Part shown: positions 10 through 17,363 of the stretch, one piece after another
Layout of the letters: each line of letters begins with the position of its first letter
How positions within the stretch are numbered: position 1 is the stretch's first letter
From: an uncultured bacterium
Lineage (GTDB): Bacteria; Desulfobacterota; DSM-4660; Desulfatiglandales; CALKZT01
Direction: 5' to 3'
Assembly (NCBI GenBank): GCA_938002815.1
Contig: CALKZT010000034.1
Span: 30,988-94,987 of the forward strand
DNA length: 64,000 nucleotides
Notes under the pieces: model-generated
Told to the model about the DNA's origin: nothing
What the model saw: only the letters and a program-made list of their open reading frames with translations
Databases searched by the model: none
Position numbers and translations under genes: made by a program

Positions 10-276
10 ATGATCGGAAAATATCTTGGGGCACTTCTGCCAACGATATTTGGTTTTTATGGGCTTATTAACCTTTTTGGAGAATACACACACGCAATAG
101 CACTCCAGTATGTTGCACAGATGGCATTGGTGCTCTATCCTCCCTTTGTTGTATTTGCCGTATTTCATCAACGTTATATTCAGAAACAGGCAGGATTATT
201 ATTGAGAAGATTGAAGGCGTCATCATGCCAGATAATGGAACTCGATAAAAGGTTGGTTAGTTTGAATGATCGATAG
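10..276 (+). CDS. hypothetical small membrane protein (88 aa)
   Basis: ORF with an SD-like gaggt just upstream of the ATG. Two hydrophobic segments (LGALLPTIFGFYGLINLF; MALVLYPPFVVFAVF). No family recognised. Confidence 0.35.
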   Translation: MIGKYLGALLPTIFGFYGLINLFGEYTHAIALQYVAQMALVLYPPFVVFAVFHQRYIQKQAGLLLRRLKASSCQIMELDKRLVSLNDR

Positions 277-291
277 AATAAATGAGGAACT

Positions 292-822
292 ATGAAAAGT
301 CATTTGAGTATTGCCAAATTTGTAAAAATATTCTGTTTATCCATGGTGTTCGTTGTTTTATGTGTTCTACTGGAGGGGGTAAACGCCATGGCCGAAACAA
401 AAGAACAGGCAACAGTAGTGGGAGAAGTGGAAGATGTTGTCCTATTTCCCTGGAAGATAAAATTGCCGGCGCGCATCGATACCGGAGCCGGCATGTCCTG
501 TCTTGACGCACGGGACATTCGTATCGAGGGCAATATGGTTGAATTCCGTTTGCCGGAAAAGTATGGCGGAGCACTTCTCCGTTTACCCATGAAAGGCCAG
601 AAGAATGTCAAATCCGCTCAAGGCCCTATGAAAAGAGTCACCGTGGAGATTGAGATATGTATCGGTTCAAAACGATTTCTTACCACGGTAAACCTTACCG
701 ATCGCTCTGGTATGAACTATCCGTTCCTCGTGGGACGCAATCTTCTCGCCCACGGTTTCATTGTTGATGTATCCCGGTCTCATCTCCTGTCTCCAACGTG
801 CCTTACGGTATCATCAGAATGA
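292..822 (+). CDS. secreted retropepsin-like aspartic protease domain protein (family often annotated 'putative ATP-dependent zinc protease', RimB-like)
   Basis: 176 aa. Signal-like N-terminus (IFCLSMVFVVLCVLLEGVNAMA). Aspartic protease signature ARIDTGAGMSCLDA. aggaa SD before the ATG. Confidence 0.7.
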   Translation: MKSHLSIAKFVKIFCLSMVFVVLCVLLEGVNAMAETKEQATVVGEVEDVVLFPWKIKLPARIDTGAGMSCLDARDIRIEGNMVEFRLPEKYGGALLRLPMKGQKNVKSAQGPMKRVTVEIEICIGSKRFLTTVNLTDRSGMNYPFLVGRNLLAHGFIVDVSRSHLLSPTCLTVSSE

Positions 823-2348
823 AAGTGAAACACCCTGCAACCATATTGGCGTTTGTACTCTTTGCGCTGACAATCTCTATCGTTATGTACCGTATCATCT
901 GGCTCAAATATCCTATTCTTCCAACTGTACCAGGTCAGGTATGGCAACTCTCCTTCGAGGCCAGCATACAGCCTGAGGAGCGCGAAATTGAGGCAGCCAT
1001 AGCGCTCCCCACCGAACAAGCCGGGAGAGTTATTGCTGAAGAACGGATTACCTCTGATACACTGAGTTTTAACCTTTTTCAGGAAGGAGCGAACCGTATC
1101 GGGCTCTGGTCGGGAATGTCCGATAAAGAGGCGGCAATCATCACCTATAAAAGCACCCTCCTTTTGAGGCCCAGACGCTTTCCCGCATCCCAGAACCCCA
1201 CCCTATCAACAGACATGCCTGAAATAGGCCGGGAAGAAACGGCATTTATTGAACGTTTAGGCGAAAAATGGAAAACGCTCGATCCACAGCAACGACTCAA
1301 GGAGGTTTCCTCTGTTGCCGGAGGGAGACAAGAAGCAGGCGGCGTGAGTAGAGAAGACATGGAGGCATGGAATAAACTCAAAGACAAGCACGGAGAATCG
1401 GGTGCAATGCTTATTCTCTTAAAGGCAGCTGGTCTTCCCGCGCGGTCTGTTTCAGGTCTTTTGCTCGTAAGGGGAATACAAACATCTCCTACAATCTGGG
1501 TGGAAGCCTGGGATGGACAACAATGGCGCGACTTAGACCCACGCACCGGACAGATCTATGGTGATAAATCAGCGCTCCTTGCGCTCACTACAGCAGGAAC
1601 TCCGATAGTCCATGTAACAAAGGGACACATTCTGGATACCCGCTGGAGCCTTGAGAGACAGATTATGAGCAAATGGCGTCTACATTTCGAGCGTATCAAA
1701 AGGTCGCAGCATATCCTTGACCGATGGTCGTTCTTCTCCATTCCCGAAGAATTCCAGAATTTACTTCGAGTTCTTTTCCTTGTTCCGCTGAGCGCCCTTA
1801 TGATCTGCCTTTTGCGTAACGTTATTGGGTTTCCCACCTTCGGGATATTCATGCCTGTACTCCTTGCCCTTGCGTTCAGAAGCACTGGGCTTATGTATGG
1901 CATAGGTATTTTCGCAAGTCTGGTATTGATAGGGTACACAGCTAGGCGGGGCCTTGACAGGTTTCGTCTTCTCCTTGTGCCCCGGCTCTCAGTACTCCTC
2001 ACGCTTGTTATAGTCTGTTTCGGCCTGTTTACCTTGATCGGCGGGAAACTGAGTCTGCGTGCATTGATGGGCGTTGGGCTTCTTCCCATCGTAATCCTTA
2101 CTATGAGTATCGAGAGGTTCTTCATCCTTATTGAGGAATCCGGCATCGGCGAGGCGCTCAAAACCGCTTTAGGGACGGTCGCCGTTGCGGTAATTACCTT
2201 CTTTGTCATTCAGTGGGAACCGATTCAACTTACCTTCTTTGTCTATCCTGAGCTTCTTTTTGCCGTTGCCGGGGTTCAGGTTCTCCTTGGTCGGTATACA
2301 GGCTACAGGTTGTCTGAAGTGATTCGTTTTAGGGTGCTTACGGGGTAA
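819..2348 (+). CDS. membrane protein: inactive transglutaminase-like extracytoplasmic domain fused to about 7 TM helices
   Basis: N-terminal TM (ATILAFVLFALTISIVMY). Transglutaminase-like core GESGAMLILLKAAGLPARSVSG...TIWVEAWDGQQWRDLDP, with Ser and Ile where the catalytic Cys and His normally sit. C-terminal third is multi-TM. ATG 819 overlaps the upstream stop (ATGA); an alternative GTG start is at 798. Confidence 0.7.
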   Translation: MKVKHPATILAFVLFALTISIVMYRIIWLKYPILPTVPGQVWQLSFEASIQPEEREIEAAIALPTEQAGRVIAEERITSDTLSFNLFQEGANRIGLWSGMSDKEAAIITYKSTLLLRPRRFPASQNPTLSTDMPEIGREETAFIERLGEKWKTLDPQQRLKEVSSVAGGRQEAGGVSREDMEAWNKLKDKHGESGAMLILLKAAGLPARSVSGLLLVRGIQTSPTIWVEAWDGQQWRDLDPRTGQIYGDKSALLALTTAGTPIVHVTKGHILDTRWSLERQIMSKWRLHFERIKRSQHILDRWSFFSIPEEFQNLLRVLFLVPLSALMICLLRNVIGFPTFGIFMPVLLALAFRSTGLMYGIGIFASLVLIGYTARRGLDRFRLLLVPRLSVLLTLVIVCFGLFTLIGGKLSLRALMGVGLLPIVILTMSIERFFILIEESGIGEALKTALGTVAVAVITFFVIQWEPIQLTFFVYPELLFAVAGVQVLLGRYTGYRLSEVIRFRVLTG

Positions 2349-2353
2349 ATTGT

Positions 2354-3304
2354 ATGAAATTCCAGATATTTCAAGGAATGGATGATATAGGTATCCTTGG
2401 CATGAACCGCCGAAATGCCGAATACATCATGCGATATAATGCACGAGCACGTTTTCCCCTTGTGGATAATAAGGTTCTGACCAAAAAGCTTGCACAAAAA
2501 TTCAATGTTCCTACCCCCGAAATCTATTACGTGATCGAGCATCACGGCGATATGGCGGAACTCGATAAAGCCCTCGAAGACCATAAAGAATTCGCCCTTA
2601 AACCCGCCCGTGGTTCAGGTGGGAGCGGGATTATCTTGTTTGTAGATAGGAAAAAAGAAGGATTTGTAAGACAGAGTGGTGCAACGATGTCCAGAGAGGA
2701 GTTCAATTATCATATATCAGGCATATTGTCTGGGATATATTCCCTTGGAGGACAGGAGGACGTAGCAATAGTAGAATCCCTCATCCATCCTGCAGAGCTC
2801 TTTGCGGAGGTAACCTACAGGGGCGTTCCCGACATAAGGATAATCGTTTACCGTGGCTTTCCTGTCATGGCCATGATCCGGCTGCCTACACGAGCATCAG
2901 ACGGTAAAGCGAATATACACGCTGGCGCAATCGGTGCAGGTATTGATATAAAGACAGGTGTAACCCTTACTGCTGTTCATCGCTCAAAGGTAATCACACA
3001 TCATCCTGATACAGGTAACACCATAGTGGGAATAAACATTCCTTACTGGGATAGCATGCTCGTTGTAGCATCAAAGGCATATGAAATGACGGGTCTCGGA
3101 TACATAGGAGTCGATCTGGTGATAGACATTAACAGGGGCCCACTTCTTCTTGAACTTAACGCCCGTCCAGGTCTTCAGATACAGATAGCAAACAACTCAG
3201 GTCTTCTGAAAAGGCTCCGGTCAGTGGATGATGCATTCTCCGACAGCAATTTGGAGCCAGAAGAAAGGGTTATGTGGGTAAAAGAAAGTTTCAAAATAAC
3301 TTGA
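2354..3304 (+). CDS. alpha-L-glutamate ligase-related ATP-grasp protein (RimK family)
   Basis: 316 aa. ATP-grasp-type segments (LKPARGSGGSGI; IGVDLVIDINRGPLLLELNARPGL). N-terminus GILGMNRRNAEYI as I recall for the RimK-related ligase subfamily. 5-nt gap from the upstream gene. Confidence 0.8.
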   Translation: MKFQIFQGMDDIGILGMNRRNAEYIMRYNARARFPLVDNKVLTKKLAQKFNVPTPEIYYVIEHHGDMAELDKALEDHKEFALKPARGSGGSGIILFVDRKKEGFVRQSGATMSREEFNYHISGILSGIYSLGGQEDVAIVESLIHPAELFAEVTYRGVPDIRIIVYRGFPVMAMIRLPTRASDGKANIHAGAIGAGIDIKTGVTLTAVHRSKVITHHPDTGNTIVGINIPYWDSMLVVASKAYEMTGLGYIGVDLVIDINRGPLLLELNARPGLQIQIANNSGLLKRLRSVDDAFSDSNLEPEERVMWVKESFKIT

Positions 3305-3317: not shown

Positions 3318-3542
3318 ATGTGGTGGTTTTATGGTCCCATTCGATGGAATTTTTGGTTTATTCCGCCAATTATGTGGTTTCTGTTCGTATTCATAATAGC
3401 CTTTGTTTTCTATCAGCTACTCAAGAGAAGGTATCCAAAATGGACACAGGCCGAAATAGAGGCGCTGAAGATGGAGATAAAATCCATAAAGGAAGAGATT
3501 GAAGAAATAAAAAGGTTAGGAGGTTCCCATGGCACTCGTTAA
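3318..3542 (+). CDS. small single-TM protein with charged helical tail (74 aa)
   Basis: Strong SD (gaggagg) 8 nt before the ATG. Trp/Phe-rich TM (FWFIPPIMWFLFVFIIAFVFY), then EIEALKMEIKSIKEEIEEIKRL. Overlaps the next gene by 14 nt. Confidence 0.5.
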   Translation: MWWFYGPIRWNFWFIPPIMWFLFVFIIAFVFYQLLKRRYPKWTQAEIEALKMEIKSIKEEIEEIKRLGGSHGTR

Positions 3543-4242
3543 GGCAGAAAAAATCGTAAAGGTTTATAAGATAGGGGAAGTTCTGATAAACTCAATAAAC
3601 GGTGTAAGCTTCGAAATAGAAGAGGCCTCGTTCGTATCCTTTGTAGGGCCATCAGGTAGTGGCAAGACAACCCTATTAAATCTCATTGGTTGCCTCGATA
3701 GTCCCACTGAAGGGAATCTTTTTGTAGCCGGTGAGGATGTAAATGAACTGGACAGAAGACAACGTGCCTTATTCAGGGGTAAGAATATTGGTTTCATATT
3801 CCAGGACTTCAATCTCATACCGGTCCTTACCGTCTATGAGAATGTAGAATACCCCCTGATTATGGTCAAAAATGTTTCCACTAAAGAGAGGGAGGAGAGG
3901 ACAATGAAACTACTCGATGCCGTGGGTATGCTAGAGCAGAAAGATAAATACCCCGATCAAATCTCCGGGGGCCAGAAGCAAAGGGTTGCAGTTGCACGCG
4001 CCCTTGTGACAAACCCGAAACTTGTCCTTGCAGATGAGCCTACTGCTAACCTCGACCATAAGACCGCATACACAGTCATTGAATTGATGAAAAGGATGAA
4101 GGCAGAGTTCAATACCACTTTCATCTTCTCAACCCATGACCCAAAAATTGTGGAAGCGGCAGAGGTTATATATACCTTGGAGGACGGAGAGATTGTGGAC
4201 AGACATGTGAAAGGAGTAAATAGCAATGGCAAATCTCTTTAA
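3529..4242 (+). CDS. ABC transporter ATP-binding protein (MacB/LolD type)
   Basis: Walker A GPSGSGKTT, signature ISGGQKQRVAVARAL, Walker B LVLADEPTANLD. SD aggagg upstream. Confidence 0.9.
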   Translation: MALVKAEKIVKVYKIGEVLINSINGVSFEIEEASFVSFVGPSGSGKTTLLNLIGCLDSPTEGNLFVAGEDVNELDRRQRALFRGKNIGFIFQDFNLIPVLTVYENVEYPLIMVKNVSTKEREERTMKLLDAVGMLEQKDKYPDQISGGQKQRVAVARALVTNPKLVLADEPTANLDHKTAYTVIELMKRMKAEFNTTFIFSTHDPKIVEAAEVIYTLEDGEIVDRHVKGVNSNGKSL

Positions 4243-5464
4243 AATAGCCATACGCAATCTCGCGCGTTACCGGAGGAGGACCATCCTCACTTCGTCGCTC
4301 ATCGCCATCGGTGTCATTTTTGTTCTCCTTTTCGTGGGTGTATCTGGTTCTTTTAAGAACATGATGATAGGCCAGATGACAGACTCCATGCTTGGCCACA
4401 TCCAGGTTCACAGAAAGGGATATATGGCATCCATCGATAACCTCCCCCTCACCATGAACATGAAACCACAGGCGGTGAAAAAACTTGAAAAGGTGTTTCA
4501 GGACATCCCTGATGTAGAATCATATTCGCCGAGGATCAAATTCGGAGGTATGTTGAGCACCTTTACCGAAACGACAAACATCAGGCTAAATGGGGTATAT
4601 CCTGAGAAAGAGATGAAGACACTGCCTCTATTGGCATCAAGGATTTCAAACGGCGGGAAAGAGATTAGAAAGGGAGAAATCATTATCCCTGAACTTCTCT
4701 CCAGGGGAATGAAGATAAACGTAGGTGACATCGTGGTGGTGATCGCCACAAATAAGGACGGCTCGGTAAACGGAAAACAGCTCAAGGTGAGTGGAATAAT
4801 CGAGAGCGTAACAGGTCCAGGCGGGAGAGATGGCTACGTACATATTGAAGATGCCATGGAAATATTAAGAATGGAGGAGATGGAGATCAGCGAGATAGCC
4901 GTAAGGCTCAGAGATTTCGGTAAGCTCCACTCAGTCTATAACACACTTAACACTCTACTTTCAGGGGAGTTGAATAAGCAGGGCAAGCCTGCCTTCGAGG
5001 TCCATACGTGGGAAAGTTTGTCACCTTTTTACAATATCGCAAGGAGCATCGACTTCATGACTATTTTCATCAAGGCCATGCTTACTGCCATTGTCCTCAT
5101 CAGCGTCATGAACGTGATGATCATGGCGGTCTATGAGAGGATCAGAGAGATAGGCACAATAGCCGCAATCGGCACCATGCCAGGGAAAATCCTCTCCATG
5201 TTCGTGACAGAGGGGGTTCTGCTCGGCATCATAGGTGCCATAGCGGGAAATATCATTGGCACCGGTCTTGTGTATCTATTGAAGGTTGTAAAGATAACAT
5301 TCAACTTTGGAAGGCAGTCAGGCCTTGTTTTGTCTCCTTATGTAACGTTATATGACATTGTGATGATATCCTTGATCGTTACTATAGTGGCTGTTATAGG
5401 TAGCTTACAGCCAGCGTTCAAGGCATCTAGGATGGAGCCTATAAAGGCCCTGAGACATGTTTAA
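4226..5464 (+). CDS. ABC transporter permease, FtsX/MacB-LolCE type
   Basis: 412 aa. One N-terminal TM, about 230-aa extracytoplasmic domain, three C-terminal TMs. C-terminal PAFKASRMEPIKALR is typical of the family. 17-nt overlap with the ATPase gene. Confidence 0.85.
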   Translation: MANLFKIAIRNLARYRRRTILTSSLIAIGVIFVLLFVGVSGSFKNMMIGQMTDSMLGHIQVHRKGYMASIDNLPLTMNMKPQAVKKLEKVFQDIPDVESYSPRIKFGGMLSTFTETTNIRLNGVYPEKEMKTLPLLASRISNGGKEIRKGEIIIPELLSRGMKINVGDIVVVIATNKDGSVNGKQLKVSGIIESVTGPGGRDGYVHIEDAMEILRMEEMEISEIAVRLRDFGKLHSVYNTLNTLLSGELNKQGKPAFEVHTWESLSPFYNIARSIDFMTIFIKAMLTAIVLISVMNVMIMAVYERIREIGTIAAIGTMPGKILSMFVTEGVLLGIIGAIAGNIIGTGLVYLLKVVKITFNFGRQSGLVLSPYVTLYDIVMISLIVTIVAVIGSLQPAFKASRMEPIKALRHV

Positions 5465-5489
5465 TTAAGCTGAAAGGAGATATGAAACG

Positions 5490-6218
5490 ATGAAAAAGAT
5501 CTTGATTGTTTTACTTATGATCTTTGTTGCCATTCCTGCTTATGCTATAGATGCCATACAGCTTTTGAAAGAGATTGATAGAAATCTGAATCCTGAATCT
5601 TATGAACTCTATAGAAAACTCATTAATATTGAGCCCGATGGAAGGAAAAAGGAATATGTACTATTCACAGCAAAAAAAGATAAGGATAAAGTGGCAGCAC
5701 TTTTTATCTCTCCTGCAAGCGATAAGGGAAGAAGCACCTTAAGGCTTGGCGACAATATGTGGCTGTATATCCCTAATGTAGGTAAGCCTGTCAGGATTAC
5801 GAGCCTTCAGTCTGTTGTTGGCGGCATTTTTAATAATTCAGACATAATGCAGCTCGACTATTCAGATGAATACGATGTTGAAAAATTTGAAGACTTAAAA
5901 GATCAGTACCTTCTCTATCTGAAGGCAAAAACAAAGGCAGTGGCTTATGATAGAGTGAACCTATGGGCAGATAAAAATACAAAGACACCTGTCAAAATAG
6001 AATGCCAGACAGAGGCAGGGATGCTCATAAAGACATTGTATTTTAAAGAGATAAAGGATTTTGGTGATGGCATAGTAAGGCCCTCTGTCATCGAAACAGA
6101 TAGTCCTCTATATAAGGGCTATAAGTCCATTATAATAATTGCGGGAATCAAAAAGAGGACATTTAGTGACGAAGTCTTTACACTTACTTTTATGCCAAAG
6201 ATGGAAACTTTAAGATAA
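5490..6218 (+). CDS. periplasmic LolA-like outer-membrane lipoprotein-sorting family protein
   Basis: Signal peptide MKKILIVLLMIFVAIPAYA. Core GDNMWLYIPNVGKPVRITSLQSVVGGIFNNSDI resembles the LolA_like family as I recall it. Confidence 0.65.
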   Translation: MKKILIVLLMIFVAIPAYAIDAIQLLKEIDRNLNPESYELYRKLINIEPDGRKKEYVLFTAKKDKDKVAALFISPASDKGRSTLRLGDNMWLYIPNVGKPVRITSLQSVVGGIFNNSDIMQLDYSDEYDVEKFEDLKDQYLLYLKAKTKAVAYDRVNLWADKNTKTPVKIECQTEAGMLIKTLYFKEIKDFGDGIVRPSVIETDSPLYKGYKSIIIIAGIKKRTFSDEVFTLTFMPKMETLR

Positions 6219-6228
6219 AGAGTGTTCA

Positions 6229-7575
6229 ATGGGCAAGGCTCCAAATTTATGGTTCAAAAGATTTTTTTGCATGTGGTTACCTTGTCTTATGCTTATTCTT
6301 ATCTACTATTCCTTATTCGCTATTCATTTGTCATTTTGTGAGGAATACAAATTTGATGTCTCAGAGATTGAAAAAAAACCTTATCACATAGGGGGTTATC
6401 TTGAATTCTATCCGATTCTCTTTGGCCTTGATAAGACATCTGCCCTCTACAAACTCAATTTTTATGATCGGGATAAAGAAAGCACCACAGAACAATACAA
6501 TGGCACACTTCAGCTGGAAGCTAGCCTGGAGAAAGGCATATCAAAGCTTTATGTAAAGACCTATACGAATTATCTCAATTCCTATCAATACGAAACGACC
6601 AAGTTCAAGATCTTCGAAGGTAATCTCTCCGTCAAGCCCTCCTCATCCTGGATATTTGAAACAGGAAAAAAAACCATGAGCTGGGGCAAGGGGTATGCCT
6701 GGAATCCCGCAGCCTTTCTCGACAGAACAAAGGATCCCAACGACCCCGAGCTTTCCCGCGAGGGATTCATCCTTGCATCTATGGATTTTACTAAGAGCTT
6801 CGCAGGGGGCAATTTAAAGACATTTTCATTTACACCTGTGGTTATTCCTGCTTATTCAGGGGTCAATGATGATTTTGGCGAGGTGGGCCATCTGAATTTT
6901 GCATCAAAGTTTTACTTTCTCTTCCATGACACGGACATTGATTTTATGTTACTAACGGGTGGCAGCAGGACAACACGCTATGGGATAGACCTTTCAAAAA
7001 ATATCTTGACGAACCTGGAGGTGCACGGTGAATGCTCCTTGATAAATGGCTACAAGAAAACCAAAGTTGACAGTAGCGGGAACACATCTCAGTCAACCTA
7101 TAATGCCTTCAACTACCTCGTTGGATTAAGGTATCTCTCACAAAAAGATACCACCTTCATCCTTGAATATTACCATAACGGCACAGGCTACACTCCTAAT
7201 GAGATGCGAGACTATTTCTCTTTCATTGAGAAAGCCTATGAGATCTATAATGCAACAGGGAATCCAGGCATGCTGAATAAGGCAACCAATTTCGCCCAGA
7301 ATATCTATGGCCGGGCAAACCCAGGAAAAAATTATCTATATCTCAGAATTCTTCAAAAAGATCCATTTGACATCCTGTACGTAACACCAGCTATCACTAT
7401 GCTTGCAAATTCAGACGATAAAAGCTTTTCTCTCATGCCTGAAATTGTATATACCGGTATTACAAACTTTGAATTCCGTCTGAGAGGAGGACCTATTGTA
7501 GGAAAAAGTGGAAGCGAATATGGCGAAAAACAGAACGATTACAGGATAGACTTCAGGATAAGATATTATTTTTAA
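6229..7575 (+). CDS. putative outer-membrane beta-barrel protein, unknown family (448 aa)
   Basis: Hydrophobic N-terminus. Tyr/Gly/Asn/Thr-rich alternating composition. C-terminal RIDFRIRYYF ends in an aromatic residue, as OMP beta-signals do. No named family recognised. Confidence 0.45.
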   Translation: MGKAPNLWFKRFFCMWLPCLMLILIYYSLFAIHLSFCEEYKFDVSEIEKKPYHIGGYLEFYPILFGLDKTSALYKLNFYDRDKESTTEQYNGTLQLEASLEKGISKLYVKTYTNYLNSYQYETTKFKIFEGNLSVKPSSSWIFETGKKTMSWGKGYAWNPAAFLDRTKDPNDPELSREGFILASMDFTKSFAGGNLKTFSFTPVVIPAYSGVNDDFGEVGHLNFASKFYFLFHDTDIDFMLLTGGSRTTRYGIDLSKNILTNLEVHGECSLINGYKKTKVDSSGNTSQSTYNAFNYLVGLRYLSQKDTTFILEYYHNGTGYTPNEMRDYFSFIEKAYEIYNATGNPGMLNKATNFAQNIYGRANPGKNYLYLRILQKDPFDILYVTPAITMLANSDDKSFSLMPEIVYTGITNFEFRLRGGPIVGKSGSEYGEKQNDYRIDFRIRYYF

Positions 7576-7979
7576 TGAAAGCAATGATGAGAGAGGCAGG
7601 TTGAAAATCGTTTTGTTGCAGGTATTGACAGAAGGGGCCAGACAGTTCGTTAATGTAGCGGCCAATGGCATTCAGAGCGACCTCATTGGGGATGATGTGT
7701 TCATAATAATTGCGTTGCCAAAAGGGGTGGGCCGGGGGTGCGGGGCAATTTGTCAATGTGTTTGGTAACAGCGGATTTGAATTGGCCGATGATGGCGCCG
7801 ATGGATTGCGGCGCGGGGCCGCGCGGTGTTGTAGGGGCGACCCGGCAGGTCGCCCCTACCCCGACATCGCCCATAATCCAAATAATCCCGTGGATGTGAT
7901 TGGGCATCACCACGAATTCATCATCCCGCAATTGCACATACGCGACCTCGCCGAACAAATGGGCGCGGTCGTGGGTGCA
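7553..7979 (-). pseudogene. decayed RAYT / IS200-like (HUH Y1) transposase gene, frameshifted and internally shortened
   Basis: HUH motif region DEFVVMPNHIHGII and GAIIGQFKSAVTKHI lie in one frame. The C-terminal signature FWQRNYYEHII lies in another frame (7553-7756). The frame break is near the G/C run at about 7731-7747. The segment normally between LFGEV and the HUH motif is missing. Confidence 0.6.
7831..7859. repeat. perfect 12-bp-stem palindrome, REP-like (gtaggggcgacc cggca ggtcgcccctac)
   Basis: Read directly. 7831-7842 is the reverse complement of 7848-7859. Lies inside the RAYT remnant. Confidence 0.9.
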
Positions 7980-8128
7980 CAGGGATCCGAAGAGATCGCC
8001 CAGGGCACGGCCATAGGCCTCCTCTGCCTGGATCCGCCGATCCAGGGATCCCAGGATGTGGGCAATTTTCCGTTTCGCCCAATGACAAGCAGGCGCGCCG
8101 CTTCTTCCTTGGTGATGACGGCAAGGAT

Positions 8129-8152
8129 GGGCACGGCATGCCGTTCCCCTAC
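8129..8152. repeat. imperfect palindrome, REP-like (gggcacggcatgccgttcccctac)
   Basis: Read directly. 10-bp arms around the gcatgc centre with one mismatch (8132/8145). Shares the cccctac flank with the 7831-7859 unit. Confidence 0.8.
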
Positions 8153-8309
8153 AACCTCGACCATCCGACTTGGGTGGAAGGAACATTAAGATCCCGGGCA
8201 TCCATCAGATAAGCTGGTTTTTCCAAAATTGCCCCCGGATCCCGATCCCGCTCACTTTTTATCAGTATTTGAGATCGTGGCAAGGCCAAGAGGCCCCCCT
8301 ATTCCCCTC

Positions 8310-8449: not shown

Positions 8450-8461
8450 TTTTCTATCTTT

Positions 8462-8535
8462 GCCCCCGTAGCTCAGGTGGATAGAGCACCAGATTCCTAA
8501 TCTGGGTGTCGTGCGTTCGAGTCGCGCCGGGGGCA
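8462..8535 (+). tRNA. tRNA-Arg (anticodon CCT)
   Basis: 74 nt cloverleaf folded by hand. Acceptor GCCCCCG/CGGGGGC; D arm GCTC-AGGTGGATA-GAGC; anticodon arm CCAGA-TTCCTAA-TCTGG; V loop GTGTC; T arm GTGCG-TTCGAGT-CGCGC; discriminator A. CCA is not encoded. Confidence 0.85.
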
Positions 8536-8548
8536 TTCCCGCTTTGGA

Positions 8549-9352
8549 TCAGCACCTCATATCCCCATAATGGATGCTCAACCTTCCCCCTCCCTTCTCC
8601 TCCATTATCAGGCTTCCATTGGGTGCCAGTCCTATAGGTACCCCTTGAATGGACCTCCCATCTAAGTTGATGGTAACCTCTTTTCCAAAGAAGTCTGCCT
8701 TTTTCACCCACTTACTGAGCACCTCTTCGTAGCGCTTCTCCCTTATAAGCCCGTAGAGGAGTTCAAATTGTTTTAGGACCTTTACTGCCACCTGCTCCCT
8801 TTGAACCCTTTTCCCTGTCTCAAGGGCAATGCAAGTGGCTGGGTATATCAGTTCCTCCACAGGGGACCAGTTGGCATTGATCCCTACACCGGCTATCACA
8901 TATTCGGGGCTGTTCCCCTTGAGTGAGACCTCTGTTAAGACCCCTGCCAGTTTCTTTCCATTCAAGATCACATCATTGGGCCATTTGACCCTGGATTTCA
9001 GGCCGTACATGGACTCAACGGCCATCACTACGCTCAAGCTTAAGGCTGCAGTAATAGAGTAGATCCTCTCCTTGGGGATCTTTGGTCTCAAGAGGAGGGA
9101 AAGGAGTATATTCTCATGGGGCTCAGATAGCCAGGCCCTACCCATCCTACCCCTTCCTTTGGTCTGAGCTTCTGCCCAGACCACTGTGATCTCCTGTTCC
9201 CCTCCCTCTGCCAGTTCCTTTGCCACATCATTGGTGGAATCCACGGTGTCCCTGAATATGAAATTCCAGGGAGGGTCGCTTTCCTCGAAGCTGTTCCAAA
9301 AGAGCTCTTCCTTCACATAGGATTCCTCAAAGGACTCGGGTTTACGTTTCAT
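8549..9352 (-). CDS. birA: biotin--[acetyl-CoA-carboxylase] ligase (no N-terminal HTH domain)
   Basis: 267 aa. Signature GRGRMGRAW. KWPNDVILNGKKLAGVL. Confidence 0.85.
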   Translation of the reverse strand: MKRKPESFEESYVKEELFWNSFEESDPPWNFIFRDTVDSTNDVAKELAEGGEQEITVVWAEAQTKGRGRMGRAWLSEPHENILLSLLLRPKIPKERIYSITAALSLSVVMAVESMYGLKSRVKWPNDVILNGKKLAGVLTEVSLKGNSPEYVIAGVGINANWSPVEELIYPATCIALETGKRVQREQVAVKVLKQFELLYGLIREKRYEEVLSKWVKKADFFGKEVTINLDGRSIQGVPIGLAPNGSLIMEEKGGGRLSIHYGDMRC

Positions 9353-9355
9353 CTC

Positions 9356-10360
9356 CTATTCTTCCTTCAAAGACCTTGTCATGACCTCCTTTGCAGCCTC
9401 CATTGGAGGCTTTCCCTCGTACAAAATCTTGTAGACCTGCTCGGTGATGGGCATCTCAATACCCATCATCATAGAAAGTTCAAAGGCAGATTTGGTGGTC
9501 CTGAGCCCCTCTGCCACCATCTGGGTGGATTCGGTTATCTCCTTCACAGACATACCCAGACCTATCTTGTAGCCAAAGGATCGGTTCCTGCTAAGCTCAC
9601 TGGTGCAGGTCAGTATCAGGTCTCCCAGGCCTGCAAGCCCAGCAAAGGTCTTGGGCTGTGCCCCCAATTTCAGACCAAGGCGTGTTATCTCCACCAGGCC
9701 CCTGGTAATCAGTGCAGCCCTTGCATTGTGTCCAAAGCCAAGGGCATCACACATCCCAGCTGCAATGGCTATCACATTCTTTAAGGCCCCGGCCAGCTGG
9801 GCACCCATCACATCATCGGTCACATATACCCTAAACCAGTGGGTGTGCAATAGCTTTTGAAGCCCCTTAGCCATGGTGAGATTATTGGATGCTATTGTCA
9901 CAACCGTGGGTAAAGATTGGGCCACCTCTTTAGCAAAGCTAGGGCCTGCAATACATGCGTATCTCTCCATGATCTCATCCCCAAGGAGGGAAGAGGCCAC
10001 CTGGCTCATGAGCATGAGGCTCCTGTTCTCTATCCCCTTGGTGGCCACCAAGAGTTTTGTGCCTTTAGAGATGTTTTTGGAGATAGGGCTCAACACGTCC
10101 CTGAAGCCATGGGAAGGGATTGCTATCAGAAGGAGGTCTTTATCCTTCGATACCTCCTCTATGTCCATAGAGGGCAAGATATTTTGGCTGAGCCTTATTC
10201 CAGGCAAAAAGACCTTGTTTTCCTGAGACTCCCTTATCTCATCATAGACCTCCTTCTCCCTCACCCAAAGATGGACCTTGTACCCCTTGGACGCGATTAG
10301 GTTTGAAAGGGCAGTCCCCCAGCTCCCTGCACCCAGTACACCAATCCCTTCGATATCCAA
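9356..10360 (-). CDS. gpsA: NAD(P)H-dependent glycerol-3-phosphate dehydrogenase
   Basis: N-terminal GVLGAGSWGTALS Rossmann motif. GLAGLGDLILTC. 334 aa. Confidence 0.9.
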   Translation of the reverse strand: MDIEGIGVLGAGSWGTALSNLIASKGYKVHLWVREKEVYDEIRESQENKVFLPGIRLSQNILPSMDIEEVSKDKDLLLIAIPSHGFRDVLSPISKNISKGTKLLVATKGIENRSLMLMSQVASSLLGDEIMERYACIAGPSFAKEVAQSLPTVVTIASNNLTMAKGLQKLLHTHWFRVYVTDDVMGAQLAGALKNVIAIAAGMCDALGFGHNARAALITRGLVEITRLGLKLGAQPKTFAGLAGLGDLILTCTSELSRNRSFGYKIGLGMSVKEITESTQMVAEGLRTTKSAFELSMMMGIEMPITEQVYKILYEGKPPMEAAKEVMTRSLKEE

Positions 10361-10364
10361 CCTA

Positions 10365-12788
10365 TCACTCCTCTTCTATCTTGGCAGCACCCACAACCCT
10401 CTCCCCGTTTTGGAGCTCTATGAGCTTTACACCCTGAGTTACCCTTCCAGTTCTGGGTACATTAGACACCTCAAACCTGATAAGCTTTCCTTCCTCGGTT
10501 ATCAGAACCATGTGATCCGTCTCAGATACCTGGTAGGAATAGACTACCCCCCCATTCTTCTCGGTAAGCCTCATAAGGGTGATCCCCTTGCCACCCCTCA
10601 TCTGGGCTCTAAACTCAGAGACAGGGGTCCTCTTACCATAGCCCCGCTCTGTTACCGTAAGTATATCACCCTCGGGTTTTAGGACCTCCATACTCACCAC
10701 CTCATCATCCTCATCAAGATCTATCCCTATTACCCCTATGGAGGCCCTTCCCACCAGCCTCACCTCACTCTCAGAAAACCTTATGCACCTGCCTTTCTTT
10801 GTGCTCAAGAAGACCTCCTTGGACCCATCAGAGAGGACCACACCCACAAGCTCATCCCCTTCCCGCATCCTGAGGGCTATGATCCCGCTACTCTTCACAT
10901 TGCTGTATTCCTCAAGTCTGGTCCTCTTCACTATCCCCTTCTTGGTGGCCATAATCACCACCAAGCCATCCTCAAAGCTCCTTAGGTTCAGGGTAGCCTT
11001 TATCTTTTCCTGGGGAGAGATATCCAGTATGTTTGCTATGTGTTTACCCTGGGCTGAGCGCGCCCCTTCGGGGAGCTCATGTACCTTCTTCAGATAGACC
11101 TTTCCAAGGCTTGTATAGAAGAGAAGATGGTCGTGGGAGTTTGCAACCACCATTATCTTTACAAAATCGTCTTCCCTTGTCTTCGCCCCTAAAACCCCTT
11201 TCCCTCCCCTCCTCTGGGCCCTGTATTGGCTCAGAGGGGTCCTCTTGGTATAACCCAGGTTACTGATGGTGACCACCATCTCCTCTTCCTGGATGAGGTC
11301 CTCCTCCTCCATGGGGTCTTCTGCATCGAGGATATCTGTCTTCCTTTGATCCCCAAATTGCTCCCTGATCCAGATGGTCTCCTCTTTAATGATTCCGTCT
11401 ACCTTTTTGGGATCAGAGAGTATCTCTTCGAAACCCTCTATGTCCTTTAGAAGCCTTCCGTATTCCTCTTCCAACCTTTCCCTTTCAAGGCCTGTAAGCC
11501 TCTGGAGCCTCATCTCCAGGATGGCCTGGGCCTGTCTCTCGGTGATGCCCAAAAGCTCCATGAGACCCTGTTTGGCCGTCTTTGTATCCTCCGAGGACCT
11601 AATGAGCTGGATCACCTCGTCTAACATAAAAAGGGCCTTTCTGAGGCCTTCTAAGATGTGTGCCCTTTCTTTTGCCTTTTTGAGTTCGAATTCGGTCTTT
11701 CTATGTACAATCTCTCTTCTGTGGTCTATGAAGGAGAGCAAGAGGGTCTTGAGGTCCAGAAGTGTGGGCCTTCCTCCTACCAGTGCCAGCATATTTATCC
11801 CAAAACTGATCTCCATCTGGGTATATTTGAAGATCCTGTTTATGAGTACAGAGGGTACTGCATCCTTCCTCAGCTCCAGCACAATTCGGATACCCTCCCT
11901 GTTGGATTCATCCCTTATCTCTTGGACTCCGTCCAGCTTCTTGTCCCTTATGAGCTCCCCGATCTTTTCTATGAGTTTTGCCTTGTTTACCTGATAAGGG
12001 ATCTCCTCAATGGTGATATATTGCCTCCCACCCTTCTTTTCTTCAAACCTGGCCTTTCCCCTGATCCTGATGATACCCCTGCCTGTCCTGTACGCCTCAG
12101 TGATCCCCTCCTTCCCCACTATTACACCACTTGTGGGGAGATCAGGTCCTGGGATAACCCTTAAGAGATCATCCACCTCAAGGGTAGGATCCTCAAGGAG
12201 GGCTATTATCCCGTCACATACCTCTTTTAGATTGTGGGGCGGGATACTCGTGGACATGCCCACGGCAATACCTGAAGAGCCATTTATAAGCAGATTGGGC
12301 ACAGGAGATGGGAGCACAACCGGTTCCATAAGGGAGCCATCGTAGTTGGGACTAAAGTCCACGGTCTCTTTTTCGATATCCCTCAGGAGTTCTTCGGCCA
12401 GCCTGCTCATCCTTACCTCTGTGTATCTCATGGCTGCCGGGGCATCTCCGTCCACAGAACCAAAATTTCCCTGTCCGTCCACCAGGGGATACCTCATATT
12501 GAAGTCTTGGGCCATTCTCACTATGGCATCATATACCGCCATGTCGCCATGGGGGTGGTATTTACCTATCACGTCACCTACTACCCTTGCGGACTTCTTG
12601 TAGGGCTTGTCGTGGAAGTTTTTCAATTCGTACATACTAAAAAGGATTCTTCTGTGCACAGGCTTCAGTCCATCCCGCACATCTGGTAAGGCCCTCCCCA
12701 CTATGACGCTCATGGAGTATTCCAGGTATGAGCGCTTCATCTCCTCTTCTATGGACACAACATCCACCACTACGTTTGACCCATCCAT
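10365..12788 (-). CDS. gyrA: DNA gyrase subunit A
   Basis: 807 aa. [29 protein letters not shown], catalytic-Tyr region AAMRYTE. C-terminal beta-pinwheel repeats. Confidence 0.97.
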
Positions 12789-12811
12789 ATGTTTGGCTCC
12801 TTTATGAAAAA

Positions 12812-15187
12812 TCAGATATCAAGGCGGCTGACTTCAAGGGCGTGCTTTAGGATGAATTCCTTTCTGGGACTTACCTCATCTCCCATCAACATGCTAAATA
12901 CCTCATCGGATTCCACCAAATCCTCGATTTTCACCCTTAGCAAAGACCTCCTCGCAGGATCCATGGTGGTCTCCCATAGCTGCTCAGGATTCATCTCTCC
13001 CAAACCTTTGTATCTTTGAATGTTTAAATGGGATTTGGCACTTAAGACCAACTCGTCTAAAATTAGTGATAGGTCTTTTGCGGGTTTCCAATCTGGGGAA
13101 CCTTCCAGTCTGTATTCTTTATCGGTTAGAATTGAAAGATTCTTCCATGACCTACACAATTGGTTGAAATCAAAAGAGGAGACCAGATTCCAATCTACCA
13201 GAAGAGGAGACCTTCCATTATTGCTCCTCACAATAGTAAACCTAAAATAACCTGTGTCTTCGTCAAAGGCTATCTCCCTGATCTGTGCACCTTCCTGAGA
13301 GACCTTTTTTGAAAGGTCTCTGATAAAGGACTCTTCCTTTAGGAGGCCTCTGTCCACAAGCCCGTTTTTCAGAAGAATGTGTATGATACCCTTGTCGTAT
13401 CCATATTTCCTTAAACTACTTAAGGACCTCTCAAACCTTTGAAGCTCCCTTATCATAGATGCCAATTCTTCACCTTGATACTTACCCATCCCCTTGATGT
13501 TTAGGACCGCTTCCTTAGATATCTTCTCTAAAAGATACTCACTAAAGGCCAGCTCGTCTTTGATGTAAAATTCCCTTTTCCCATCCACTATCCTGTAGAG
13601 GGGTGGCTGGGCCACATAGAGATGCCCCCTCTCTATTATTTCCCTCATCTCCCTGAAGAAAAAGGTCAAAAGGAGTGTCCTTATGTGGGCACCGTCCACA
13701 TCGGCATCTGTCATTATGATGATCTTATTATATCTCAAAGACGATATGTCGAAGTCCTTTTCGCCTATTCCTGTTCCCAAGGCAGCTATCATAGTCCTTA
13801 TCTCGTCGCTACTGATCACCTTGTCAAACCTTGCCTTCTCCACGTTCAGGATCTTCCCTTTCAGGGGCAAGACCGCCTGAAACCGTCTATCCCTTGCCTG
13901 TTTGGCAGAGCCTCCCGCAGAATCCCCTTCCACTATGAATAGCTCCCTTACCTTGGGATCCTTCTCTTGGCAGTCGGCAAGCTTGCTGGGAATAGAAAAG
14001 TCAGAGACCCCTGCCTTCTTCCTCGCCAATTCCTTTGCCTTGCGGGCGGCCTCCCTTGCCCTGGCAGCCTCCACTGCCTTCTGTATTATGGGTCTCACCA
14101 ACTGGGGATTCTCTTCAAACGCCCTGGAAAGACCCTCGTTGGTGACCGCCTCCACTAGGCCCTTTATCTCGCTGTTTCCAAGTTTTGTCTTGGTCTGACC
14201 CTCAAATTGGGGATTTGGCAGTTTTACACTTATGACGGCAACCAATCCCTCTCTCACATCCTCACCGCTCAACTTTTCCTTAAATGACTTTGTAAGTGGA
14301 GAAGACTGAAGGACTGAATTTATGCTCCTTGTCAGGCCGGCTTTGAAGCCTATTAAATGGGTTCCACCCTCGATTGTGTTTATATTATTGGCATAACTTA
14401 AGATATTTTCATTATATGAATTATTGTACTGAAGGGCAATTTCGATCAAGATATTATTTTTCTCTGACTTAAAATATATTGGCTCTGGATGAAGGACCTC
14501 TTTTGTTCTGTTTAAATACTTTACAAATGCTACGATCCCACCCTCATATTGGTACTCTTTTGAAATCCCAGAATTTTCATCCAGGAATTTTATTTTTATC
14601 CCACTCGTGAGAAATGCCAGTTCTCTAAGTCTTCTTATTAGATAATTCGGATCCCATAATATTGTCTCGAATATCTCTGAATCAGGTTTAAATCTGACAG
14701 TCGTACCCGTCAGATGAGTATCTCCTCTAACTTCTAAACCACAGGTGGGTACACCCCTTTCGTAGCGTTGATAATAGATATGGCCGTCCCTTTTGACATA
14801 CACCTCTAAGAACTCAGAGAGGGCATTTACTACCGATACTCCAACACCATGGAGTCCACCCGACACCTTGTAGATCTTATTATCAAACTTTCCACCGGCA
14901 TGGAGTTTGGTCATCACCACCTGGACTGCAGGCACCTTCTCGGTCTCGTGTATGTCCACAGGAATACCCCTGCCATCGTCAGCTACCTCCACAGACCCGT
15001 CCTCTAAGAGCCTTACGGAGATGGTTGTGCAATAACCTGCAAGGGCCTCGTCTATACTGTTATCCACCACCTCAAAGACCAGGTGGTGCAGGCCCTCGAA
15101 TCCGGTATTGCCTATATACATGGCAGGTCTTTTTCTTACTGCCTCGAGACCTTCGAGGACCTTAATGTCAGAGGCTTTATATGTCAC
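12812..15187 (-). CDS. gyrB: DNA gyrase subunit B (long form with Toprim insertion)
   Basis: [19 protein letters not shown], Toprim [20 protein letters not shown] and [13 protein letters not shown] prefer the GTG start at 15187, which forms a GTGA overlap with the dnaN stop. The longest ORF starts at 15223. Confidence 0.95.
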
Positions 15188-17329: not shown

Positions 17330-17363
17330 AAGAGATAGATCAATGAGATGAGGTAAAGGGGAG

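What the first reader, a model, noticed from the sequence alone, without database searches (positions are those of the whole stretch)
292..3304. DTGA protease + 7TM inactive-transglutaminase protein + RimK-related ATP-grasp ligase triad
Three tightly packed plus-strand genes.
- A signal-peptide-bearing retropepsin-like protein (IDTGAG).
- A membrane protein whose extracytoplasmic transglutaminase-like core has Ser and Ile at the usual Cys and His positions (GESGAM..., TIWVEAW), fused to about 7 TM helices.
- A cytoplasmic RimK-related ligase.

An ATGA overlap at 819-822 and a 5-nt gap at 2349-2353 imply co-expression. From memory, comparative genomics of amidoligases has noted this triad repeatedly. 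It predicts a ribosome-independent peptide or poly-amino-acid product handled at the membrane. I know of no experimentally defined product or role.
Basis: partly seen in the sequence, partly recalled or inferred. Interest (0 to 1): 0.55.

Follow-up and report, generated by a model that had tools for sequence, protein, structure and literature searches.

The report
rloABC-type envelope peptide-ligase operon
These three genes are a clear copy, in an uncultured sulfate-reducer-like bacterium, of the rloABC operon (secreted protease, membrane protein, cytoplasmic amino-acid ligase) studied genetically in Pseudomonas in 2025. It is a new member of a known system whose chemical product is still unknown.

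Summary
Three co-directional genes sit at 292-822, 819-2348 and 2354-3304, with an ATGA overlap and a 5-nt gap.

- **Gene 1** encodes a signal-peptide retropepsin-like protease (PF05618, DTGA).
- **Gene 2** encodes an 8-TM protein: an N-terminal anchor, a periplasmic transglutaminase-like domain lacking the catalytic Cys and His, and the PF14402 7TM domain.
- **Gene 3** encodes an ATP-grasp ligase that passes the curated cut-offs of TIGR02291 and PF14397. It fails those of RimK, GshB and cyanophycin synthetase.

**Linkage.** Among 80 related genome loci from at least six phyla, the ligase follows the membrane gene in 75/75 evaluable cases. The protease precedes it in 66/76.

- The catalytic positions hold Lys190 and Thr225, not Ser and Ile.
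- The triad is no longer uncharacterised. It is rloABC (Lormand et al., mBio 2025). RloA cleaves runs of at least 8 glutamates, and loss of all RloA proteases is lethal in low-osmolarity medium unless rloB or rloC is deleted.

**Most likely mechanism (inferred).** RloC builds an acidic, probably poly-alpha-glutamate, chain. RloB passes or presents it at the periplasmic face. RloA trims it. The product remains unidentified.

**Verdict.** New member of a known kind; modest interest.

The parts
284..288 (+). Shine-Dalgarno-like GAGGA, 3 nt (289-291) before the rloA-like ATG
   Evidence: Read from the sequence. The upstream ORF ends at 276, so there are only 15 nt of spacer and no obvious promoter of its own.
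292..822 (+). rloA-like gene: secreted retropepsin-like aspartic peptidase (176 aa)
   Evidence: PF05618 at 5e-19. NCBIfam scores are RloA3 83.8, RloA 55.3, RloA2 52.1 and RimB 28.3 bits, all below the equivalog cut-offs. It hits the RloA crystal structures 9G59 and 9G58 at 7e-10 and 3e-9, and 2PMA.
292..387 (+). Predicted Sec signal peptide (residues 1-32, cleavage after VNA)
   Evidence: Positive n-region, hydrophobic core at residues 10-28, and V at -3 / A at -1. The family consensus also carries an N-terminal hydrophobic leader. This is heuristic only.
475..492 (+). Catalytic motif I-D-T-G-A-G (D63)
   Evidence: D63, T64, G65 and A66 are each conserved in at least 93% of 72 RloA-like neighbours. 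Ala after DTG is the retropepsin signature (PMC12239564).
819..2348 (+). rloB-like gene: 8-TM membrane protein with a periplasmic inactive transglutaminase-like domain (509 aa)
   Evidence: PF14402 at 1e-64, PF14400 at 1.5e-10, PF01841 at 8e-6. NCBIfam RloB scores 210.8 bits against a cut-off of 900. The AF2 model has pLDDT 88 and pTM 0.72.
843..899 (+). N-terminal membrane anchor (residues 9-27)
   Evidence: Hydropathy 2.43. Model helix 6-27.
900..1769 (+). Extracytoplasmic beta-sandwich plus transglutaminase-like core (residues 28-317). The catalytic positions are K190 (nt 1386-1388), T225 (1491-1493) and D240 (1536-1538).
   Evidence: Foldseek hit to 3ISR (transglutaminase-like putative cysteine protease) at E 4e-9, TM 0.58. 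The profile hits 3ISR at 4.6e-5, with Cys aligned to the K190 column and His to the T225 column.
1770..2345 (+). 7TM domain (residues 318-509) with conserved cytoplasmic-face motifs (R333, R376, P388-R389, E432-R433, E440, G491-R492-Y493-x-G495-x-R497...R503-F504)
   Evidence: PF14402 at 4.6e-61 on this part alone. There is no significant PDB fold match.
819..822 (+). ATGA start/stop overlap of rloA and rloB (translational coupling)
   Evidence: Read from the sequence. The same overlap occurs in L002 and L003.
2349..2353 (+). 5-nt spacer between the rloB stop and the rloC start
   Evidence: Read from the sequence.
2354..3304 (+). rloC-like gene: cytoplasmic ATP-grasp amidoligase (316 aa)
   Evidence: TIGR02291 at 414.6 bits (cut-off 314.2). 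PF14397 at 300.7 bits (cut-off 31.4). No TM segment. All 55 invariant columns of 53 orthologs are present, including K83, E141, D254, E267 and N269.

Best explanation
Window 292-3304 is an rloABC-type operon. I put that identity at about 0.9.

**Proposed mechanism (about 0.45).**
1. The cytoplasmic ATP-grasp ligase (RloC-like, 2354-3304) uses ATP to build an acidic peptide chain without the ribosome. The chain is most likely alpha-linked poly-L-glutamate, either free or as a tail on an acceptor.
2. The 8-TM protein (RloB-like, 819-2348) docks the ligase on its conserved, positively charged cytoplasmic face. Its 7TM domain passes or presents the product at the periplasmic side. There the catalytically dead transglutaminase-like domain acts as a binding module rather than an enzyme.
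3. The Sec-exported retropepsin-like dimer (RloA-like, 292-822) cuts the poly-acidic chain in the periplasm and so limits its length or amount.
4. If the product is not trimmed it accumulates in the envelope and becomes harmful, especially in low-osmolarity medium.

**Shown here.** Gene layout, family membership, an intact ligase active site, an intact protease active site including the two Arg residues needed for poly-Glu cleavage, the dead transglutaminase triad, the topology, and near-obligate B-C linkage with frequent A.

**Shown elsewhere (P. aeruginosa, PMC12239564).** RloA cleaves runs of at least 8 Glu. The triple rloA deletion is lethal in hypo-osmotic medium and is rescued by deleting rloB or rloC.

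**Inferred.** That RloC makes poly-Glu, that RloB translocates or presents it, and that the same holds in this organism.
For: **Families and layout.**

**RloC-like.**
- It is above the curated cut-off of TIGR02291 ('alpha-L-glutamate ligase-like').
- Its family profile's best solved relatives are the poly-glutamate ligase RimK (3e-8), then cyanophycin synthetase (3.5e-5) and the tubulin polyglutamylase TTLL7 (1.4e-4). All are amino-acid or peptide polymerising ligases.
- All invariant ATP-grasp residues are present.

**RloA-like.**
- It matches the RloA crystal structures.
- It has D63-T-G-A.
- R115 and R138 are the equivalents of RloA(Pa) R114 and R137, whose mutation abolishes poly-Glu cleavage and complementation. 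I checked the numbering on Pseudomonas orthologs, which show D48, K46, R114, R137 and C122/C171 (paper).
- It has the periplasm-type Cys pair (C123/C170), a signal peptide and a mature pI of 8.9.

**RloB-like.**
- The model is confident. The periplasmic domain matches a transglutaminase-like fold but has Lys and Thr at the Cys and His positions.
- Conserved charged residues cluster at the cytoplasmic ends of the helices and in the C-tail GRYTGYRLxExxRFR.

**Linkage.**
- RloC-like is directly downstream in 75/75 evaluable loci. RloA-like is directly upstream in 66/76. The full triad is present in 61/71.
- These loci span Thermodesulfobacteriota, Nitrospirota, Gemmatimonadota, Myxococcota, Bdellovibrionota and alpha-, beta- and gamma-proteobacteria.
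- No fourth conserved gene was found.

**Genetics and biochemistry in P. aeruginosa.**
Against: - No product of any RloC has been identified. The authors of the only functional study leave open free poly-Glu versus a polyglutamylated protein, and suggest peptidoglycan-related effects.
- Pfam files the ligase under 'sugar-transfer associated ATP-grasp' (PF14397), which hints at a non-peptide acceptor.
- RloB has no ATPase, and its 7TM domain resembles no solved transporter (best Foldseek E for any membrane protein is about 0.5-0.7). Translocation is therefore conjecture.
- The RloA-like and RloB-like proteins score well below NCBI's RloA/RloB cut-offs (84 vs 210 bits; 211 vs 900 bits). RloB is only 28-33% identical to the proteobacterial proteins, so function may have drifted.
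- In 10 of 76 loci the protease gene is not adjacent.
Confidence: 0.55

Rival explanations
1. The operon modifies an envelope precursor rather than making a free polymer. RloC adds one or a few amino acids to a non-ribosomal acceptor, such as a peptidoglycan stem peptide, a lipid-linked or uronic-acid polysaccharide unit, or the C-terminus of a specific protein. RloB is the scaffold or flippase-like partner. RloA removes or edits the modification.
For: - The best Pfam family is 'sugar-transfer associated ATP-grasp'.
- P. aeruginosa rlo mutants have cell-shape defects and beta-lactam sensitivity, and the authors discuss peptidoglycan homeostasis.
- A Shewanella rloB-type mutant over-produces membrane vesicles.
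- RimK, the closest solved relative, also modifies a protein C-terminus.
Against: - No glycosyltransferase, Mur, flippase or other envelope-biosynthesis gene is conserved next to the triad in 82 loci.
- RloA needs at least 8 consecutive Glu and does not cut shorter runs. That fits a polymer better than a one-residue modification.
- The RloB C-terminus is not conserved and not acidic, so it is an unlikely RimK-style acceptor.
Confidence: 0.25
2. RloB is a sensor or regulator rather than a conduit. Its periplasmic dead-enzyme domain binds an envelope ligand, the 7TM domain signals to or regulates the bound ATP-grasp enzyme, and RloA produces or destroys the ligand.
For: - The architecture of extracytoplasmic ligand-binding domain plus 7TM resembles bacterial 7TM receptors (my own knowledge).
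- The strongest conservation is on the cytoplasmic face.
- In Vibrio cholerae the operon is under the envelope-stress system VxrAB.
Against: - There is no output domain (kinase, cyclase, HD-GYP and so on) in RloB or nearby.
- Deleting rloB phenocopies deleting rloC in suppressing the protease-less mutant. That fits one production pathway more simply than a regulator.
- The periplasmic domain is poorly conserved: identity falls to 25-30% and the conserved residues are mostly structural.
Confidence: 0.1
3. It is a graspetide-like RiPP cluster. The ATP-grasp enzyme cross-links a ribosomal precursor peptide, the protease removes the leader, and the membrane protein exports the product.
For: ATP-grasp ligase plus protease plus membrane protein is the usual parts list of graspetide clusters (my own knowledge). 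A 74-aa ORF follows rloC at 3318-3542.
Against: - No small ORF is conserved beside the triad in 82 loci.
- The 74-aa ORF is found only in the same-species contig and is absent from the 81%-identical relative L003.
- The ligase belongs to TIGR02291/PF14397.
- The protease is periplasmic and specific for poly-Glu.
Confidence: 0.03
4. The three genes are neighbours by chance or by local synteny and do not work together.
For: None beyond the general caveat that adjacency is not function.
Against: - B-C adjacency is 75/75 and the full triad 61/71 across phyla, with otherwise unrelated flanks.
- The genes have overlapping start and stop codons.
- Epistasis has been shown in P. aeruginosa.
Confidence: 0.01

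Closest known systems
rloABC operon of Pseudomonas aeruginosa (PA1768-PA1767-PA1766; Lormand et al., mBio 2025, PMC12239564)
   Same: - Same three families in the same order and on the same strand, with coupled or overlapping genes.
- RloA-type features: signal peptide, DTGA, the Cys pair and the poly-Glu-binding Arg pair.
- RloB-type architecture: N-terminal TM, periplasmic dead transglutaminase domain and 7TM domain.
- RloC-type ligase at 43-53% identity to the orthologs in the 46 more distant survey loci, mostly proteobacterial.
   Different: - The RloB-like protein is only 28-33% identical to the proteobacterial proteins. The RloA-like and RloB-like proteins are far below NCBI's cut-offs for those names.
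- The protease flap is about 16-18 residues shorter.
- The host is an uncultured Desulfobacterota-like anaerobe, not a gammaproteobacterium.
- Within the 64-kb window there are no extra RloA paralogs and no rimBK.
- In this lineage a LolCDE/MacB-type ABC cluster follows directly.
RimK / RimB (RimABK) ribosomal protein S6 poly-glutamylation system
   Same: It pairs an ATP-grasp ligase related to RimK with a PF05618 retropepsin-like protease that cleaves poly-alpha-glutamate. RimK is the closest solved relative of the RloC family.
   Different: - The ligase fails the RimK family cut-off (50.8 vs 143.4 bits).
- The protease is exported, not cytoplasmic.
- A membrane protein sits between the two genes.
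- In P. aeruginosa, rimB shows no genetic interaction with rloA.
Poly-gamma-glutamate synthesis and turnover (PgsB/C/A with PgdS or CapD) of Bacillus. This is a functional analogy from my own knowledge, not homology.
   Same: The logic matches: an ATP-dependent amide ligase, membrane partners that couple synthesis to export, and a dedicated extracytoplasmic depolymerase. PgdS belongs to the same papain-like superfamily as transglutaminase-like domains.
   Different: The enzyme families are unrelated: PgsB is Mur-ligase-like, not ATP-grasp. The linkage there is gamma, whereas RloA cleaves alpha-linked, genetically encoded Glu runs. The papain-like domain here is catalytically dead.
Transglutaminase-like putative cysteine protease 3ISR (Cytophaga hutchinsonii)
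   Same: The fold of the periplasmic part, a beta-sandwich plus transglutaminase core, matches: Foldseek E 4e-9, TM 0.58 over 275 columns, and profile E 4.6e-5.
   Different: 3ISR keeps the Cys and His, while the window protein has Lys190 and Thr225. 3ISR has no 7TM domain.

Membership tests
rloABC operon (Lormand et al. 2025) | PF05618 retropepsin-like protease with DTG-A, an N-terminal signal peptide and the periplasm-type Cys pair | tested here: met
   PF05618 at 5e-19. D63-T-G-A, C123 and C170 align to the Cys pair of 9G58/9G59.
rloABC operon (Lormand et al. 2025) | Poly-Glu-coordinating residues of RloA (K46, R114, R137 in P. aeruginosa numbering) | tested here: met
   The window residues are R61 (conservative for K46), R115 and R138. 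The latter two are conserved in 97-98% of 72 neighbours. Numbering was verified on Pseudomonas orthologs.
rloABC operon (Lormand et al. 2025) | [quoted passage not shown] | tested here: met
   Both families are above Pfam cut-offs.
rloABC operon (Lormand et al. 2025) | Cytoplasmic ATP-grasp protein of the TIGR02291 / PF14397 family | tested here: met
   414.6 bits vs cut-off 314.2, and 300.7 vs 31.4. No TM segment.
rloABC operon (Lormand et al. 2025) | Gene order A-B-C on one strand, conserved in relatives | tested here: met
   (75/75 B-C; 66/76 A-B).
rloABC operon (Lormand et al. 2025) | NCBIfam models for RloA / RloA2 / RloA3 / RloB reached at their curated cut-offs | tested here: not met
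   RloA3 83.8 vs 210, RloA 55.3 vs 280, RloB 210.8 vs 900. These are narrow 'equivalog/exception' models, so orthology here rests on architecture plus synteny.
rloABC operon (Lormand et al. 2025) | Cleavage of runs of at least 8 Glu by the protease, and the hypo-osmotic lethality / rloB-rloC suppression phenotype | not testable with these tools
   This needs enzyme assays and genetics.
RimK family alpha-L-glutamate ligases (TIGR00768 / PRK10446) | Score at or above the family cut-off | tested here: not met
   50.8 vs 143.4 bits, and 20.9 vs 331 bits.
Glutathione synthetase / cyanophycin synthetase / D-Ala-D-Ala ligase | Score at or above the family cut-off | tested here: not met
   20.5 vs 272, 17.3 vs 850, and 16.8 vs 243 bits.
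Active transglutaminase-like thiol enzymes (PF01841 core) | Catalytic Cys-His-Asp triad | tested here: not met
   K190, T225 and D240 occupy the triad columns. Only about 3% of 339 family members keep Cys and His.
Graspetide (ATP-grasp RiPP) clusters | Adjacent conserved precursor-peptide gene | tested here: not met
   No conserved small ORF within 600 nt of the triad in 82 loci.

The most novel reading that the evidence does not exclude
The Rlo module makes a periplasmic poly-alpha-glutamate (or similar acidic peptide) that serves as an envelope polyanion or osmolyte, with a role comparable to osmoregulated periplasmic glucans. In this Desulfobacterota-like lineage it would be transcriptionally joined to the LolCDE/MacB-type ABC transporter, LolA-like protein and putative outer-membrane protein at 3529-7575. 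Those would carry the product or its RloA-trimmed fragments beyond the periplasm. Together this would be a complete envelope-spanning pathway for a ribosome-independent peptide, which has not been described in Gram-negative bacteria.
Probability: 0.12. Interest if true: 0.7.

Novelty: new member of a known kind. Interest (0 to 1): 0.3.

Why it matters
The Rlo system affects osmotic survival, cell shape, biofilm formation and beta-lactam tolerance in P. aeruginosa, yet what RloC makes and what RloB does are unknown. This locus shows that the intact three-gene module also exists in anaerobic Desulfobacterota-like bacteria, along with related copies in Nitrospirota, Gemmatimonadota and Myxococcota. 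It keeps the protease's poly-Glu-binding residues, the dead transglutaminase site and the ligase active site. The conserved core points to a general envelope function rather than a Pseudomonas speciality. It also marks which residues and cytoplasmic motifs of RloB are worth mutating. The window itself adds a divergent ortholog for comparative or biochemical work and does not establish a new principle.

Tried and rejected
- **PDB sequence search with RloB alone.** It gave only spurious THO-complex hits at E of at least 0.013. The family profile was needed to reach 3ISR.
- **Foldseek of the full RloB model.** Nothing significant was found for the 7TM half. The best membrane-protein hits were WzxE at E 0.47 and RnfE at E 0.72, which I treat as noise. 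No transporter family can be named.
- **AlphaFold model of RloC.** I ran no further search on it, because ATP-grasp folds are too alike for a fold ranking to decide the substrate.
- **Source contig.** The 108-kb source contig of RloB could not be fetched. Cluster look-ups returned no organism names. The organism was instead inferred from GyrB relatives.
- **Literature.** Iyer et al. 2009 (PMC3268129), the comparative-genomics source of the Pfam families, is not held. What I say about it rests on citations in other papers and on memory.
- **Fourth gene.** A search for a conserved fourth gene was negative: only genus-level synteny and generic ABC ATPases turned up.
- **Precursor peptide.** A search for a conserved small ORF was negative, so I rejected the RiPP reading.
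- **Promoter and terminator scan.** Counts were no higher than in shuffled sequence, and there was no + strand terminator between 276 and 3529. The operon boundaries remain undefined.
- **GTG at 798 as the RloB start.** I rejected it in favour of the ATG at 819, because the ATGA overlap is conserved in relatives.


Full report
**1. Observation.** Three + strand ORFs lie at 292-822 (176 aa), 819-2348 (509 aa from the ATG) and 2354-3304 (316 aa).
- The first two share an ATGA at 819-822. The second and third are separated by ATTGT at 2349-2353.
- A GAGGA sits 3 nt before the first ATG.
- The same 4-nt A/B overlap occurs in relatives at 55% and 81% RloB identity, which favours the ATG at 819 over the GTG at 798.
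- The upstream ORF ends 15 nt before gene 1, and the next ORF starts 13 nt after gene 3. No + strand terminator-like site lies between 276 and 3529. The three genes are therefore certainly packed together, but the transcript may be longer.

**2. Families.**
- ORF1 matches PF05618 at 5e-19. In NCBIfam it ranks RloA3 > RloA > RloA2 > RimB, all below cut-off.
- ORF2 matches PF14402 (1e-64), PF14400 (1.5e-10) and the C-terminal half of PF01841 (8e-6). NCBIfam 'RloB' scores 211 bits against a cut-off of 900.
- ORF3 is above the curated cut-offs of TIGR02291 'alpha-L-glutamate ligase-like protein' (414.6 vs 314.2) and PF14397 (300.7 vs 31.4). It is far below those of RimK, GshB, cyanophycin synthetase and Ddl.

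**3. Residues: ORF1.**
- It has I-D-T-G-A-G at residues 62-67.
- R115 and R138 are conserved in 97-98% of 72 RloA-like neighbours.
- On Pseudomonas orthologs numbered from their Met, the same columns are D48, K46, R114, R137 and C122/C171. This is exactly the numbering used in the mBio paper for the catalytic Asp, the poly-Glu-binding residues and the periplasm-type disulfide.
- The window protein has R61, D63, R115, R138 and C123/C170. It also has a plausible Sec signal peptide (K2/K9/K12, hydrophobic residues 10-28, VNA at 30-32) and a basic mature part with pI 8.9.
- It matches the RloA crystal structures 9G59 and 9G58 at 7e-10 and 3e-9, with a flap about 16-18 residues shorter.

**4. Residues: ORF3.** It carries every one of the 55 invariant columns of 53 orthologs, including the ATP-grasp Lys (K83) and the Mg-binding D254/E267/N269. 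It has no TM segment.

**5. Residues and model: ORF2.**
- Hydropathy and an AlphaFold2 model (pLDDT 88, pTM 0.72) give one N-terminal TM helix, a beta-sandwich plus alpha/beta domain (residues ~28-317) and seven C-terminal helices. The positive-inside rule places the large domain outside the cytoplasm.
- Foldseek matches that domain to the transglutaminase-like putative cysteine protease 3ISR (E 4e-9, TM 0.58). The family profile aligns to 3ISR at 4.6e-5.
- In that alignment, and by the canonical spacing to GIPAR and W-x-E, the Cys column is K190, the His column is T225 and the Asp column is D240.
- Across 339 family members the columns are highly variable. Only nine sequences keep Cys and His.
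- Conservation is concentrated in the 7TM half and on its cytoplasmic face: R333, R376, P388-R389, E432-R433, E440 and the tail GRYTGYRLxExxRFR.
- The 7TM half has no significant match to any solved structure or to any other Pfam family.

**6. Linkage.**
- The RloB family has 1,730 clusters at 50% identity with E <= 1e-3.
- A scan of one genome per species returned at least 594 loci. The best 80 include Thermodesulfobacteriota, Syntrophaceae, Nitrospiraceae/Nitrospirales, Gemmatimonadota, Myxococcota, Bdellovibrionales and many alpha-, beta- and gamma-proteobacteria, including Pseudomonas and Legionella.
- With profile searches on the flanks, an RloC-like gene lies directly downstream on the same strand in 75 of 75 evaluable loci. 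An RloA-like gene lies directly upstream in 66 of 76. The full triad is present in 61 of 71.
- Clustering all other flanking ORFs found no fourth family shared beyond genus-level synteny. No small ORF is conserved next to the triad.
- The module is therefore self-contained. The second refutation condition is not met, and a RiPP reading is unsupported.

**7. Organism and context.**
- The window carries gyrB, gyrA, yidC, gpsA, birA and a tRNA-Arg, so it is chromosomal.
- GyrB is 79% identical to the nearest metagenomic protein. It is 59-62% identical to the named relatives listed, which are 'Deltaproteobacteria' MAGs, Desulfatiglans anilini, a Desulfobacterales MAG and a Desulfobacteraceae MAG.
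- The closest named RloB relatives (about 53%) come from Syntrophorhabdaceae, Deltaproteobacteria and Thermodesulfobacteriota MAGs, where NCBI calls the protein 'UUP1 family membrane protein'.
- The host is thus an uncultured Desulfobacterota-like bacterium.
- The window's RloB belongs to a small subfamily: seven clusters at 385-500 bits, then fragments, then full-length proteins from about 270 bits. That subfamily is distinct from the proteobacterial majority.

**8. What is known.**
- Lormand et al. (mBio 2025, PMC12239564) named this operon rloABC in P. aeruginosa (PA1768-PA1767-PA1766).
- They solved RloA-type structures and showed that RloA cleaves runs of at least 8 Glu but not 6 or fewer.
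- They showed that R114A and R137A abolish both activity and complementation.
- A mutant lacking all three RloA paralogs dies in low-salt medium and has shape, biofilm and antibiotic defects. Deleting rloB or rloC rescues it.
- They state that the activities of RloB and RloC, and the physiological substrate, remain to be found.
- Earlier screens hit the same genes. A Shewanella rloB-type mutant over-produces vesicles.
- I found no later paper on the RloC product.

**9. Mechanism.**
- The epistasis says that RloB and RloC make something that is harmful unless RloA removes it.
- RloA's specificity, the ligase's nearest relatives (RimK, cyanophycin synthetase, TTLL7), its cytoplasmic location and RloB's topology together suggest this sequence. 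RloC polymerises glutamate or another acidic residue. RloB receives the chain at its conserved cationic cytoplasmic face and exposes it outside. The dead transglutaminase domain holds it, and RloA trims it.
- An untrimmed periplasmic polyanion would raise periplasmic osmotic pressure. That would explain lethality specifically in dilute medium. This last point is my inference.
- I rate the identity of the locus at about 0.9 and this mechanism at about 0.45.
- The main rival (0.25) is modification of an envelope precursor or protein rather than synthesis of a free polymer. A sensor role for RloB (0.1), a RiPP cluster (0.03) and chance adjacency (0.01) follow.

**10. Novelty and score.**
- The kind is known. 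It was predicted by comparative genomics, is captured in Pfam and TIGRFAM, and was characterised genetically in 2025.
- This locus is a divergent but architecturally complete member in a lineage outside the gammaproteobacteria in which the operon has been studied.
- The only lineage-specific feature is the immediately following LolCDE/MacB-type ABC, LolA-like and 448-aa gene cluster. It is also present after the triad in L003 and L009 but in none of the other loci. This may be plain synteny.
- Interest is 0.3. The system still holds an open biochemical question, but this window does not make it more testable than the Pseudomonas model already does.

Noticed in passing
window 3529-7575 (+): A cluster starts 225 nt after rloC: a LolD/MacB-type ABC ATPase (3529-4242), an FtsX/MacB_PCD permease (4226-5464), a LolA-like TP_0789 protein (5490-6218) and a 448-aa protein with no family hit that ends ...RIRYYF (6229-7575, possibly an outer-membrane barrel). 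No terminator-like site lies in between. The same cluster follows the triad in L003 (RloB 81% identity) and L009 (54%), but in none of the other ~78 loci.
   Followed up: partly
window 3318-3542 (+): A 74-aa ORF with one hydrophobic helix and a Glu/Lys-rich C-terminal helix sits 13 nt after rloC and overlaps the ABC ATPase start. It has no family hit. It was found only in the same-species contig L001 and is absent from the 81% relative L003.
   Followed up: partly
window 10-276 (+), cut by the window start: This is the C-terminal 88 aa of a hydrophobic protein. It is homologous to a 288-aa protein with no Pfam family that overlaps the rloA start in L003 and L004. Further upstream in L003 are periplasmic Metal_resist/LTXXQ and MamS_MamX-type genes. 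It is not conserved with the triad elsewhere.
   Followed up: partly
window 7701-8201 (-): A 166-aa ORF contains 'VVMPNHIHGIIW', an HUH-like motif reminiscent of IS200/REP-associated tyrosine transposases. It has no Pfam or NCBIfam hit at the thresholds used.
   Followed up: partly
window 8461-19723: Housekeeping genes: tRNA-Arg(CCT) at 8461-8536 (+), birA at 8549-9352 (-), gpsA at 9359-10375 (-), gyrA at 10368-12818 (-), gyrB at 12815-15292 (-) and yidC at 18107-19723 (+). This looks like a chromosomal, possibly origin-proximal region. GC content of the whole window is 47%.
   Followed up: partly
RloB-family proteins P0188, P0264, P0268 (and six others): A small minority of the family (9 of 339) keeps Cys and His at the transglutaminase catalytic columns. 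Three have the full Cys-His-Asp triad, so some members may still be active enzymes.
   Followed up: partly
loci L011, L013, L023, L026, L028, L042, L048, L052, L056, L061: These loci have rloB-rloC without an adjacent rloA-like gene. In L061 a copy lies about 3.5 kb downstream of rloB on the other strand. This fits the unlinked RloA paralogs reported in P. aeruginosa.
   Followed up: no
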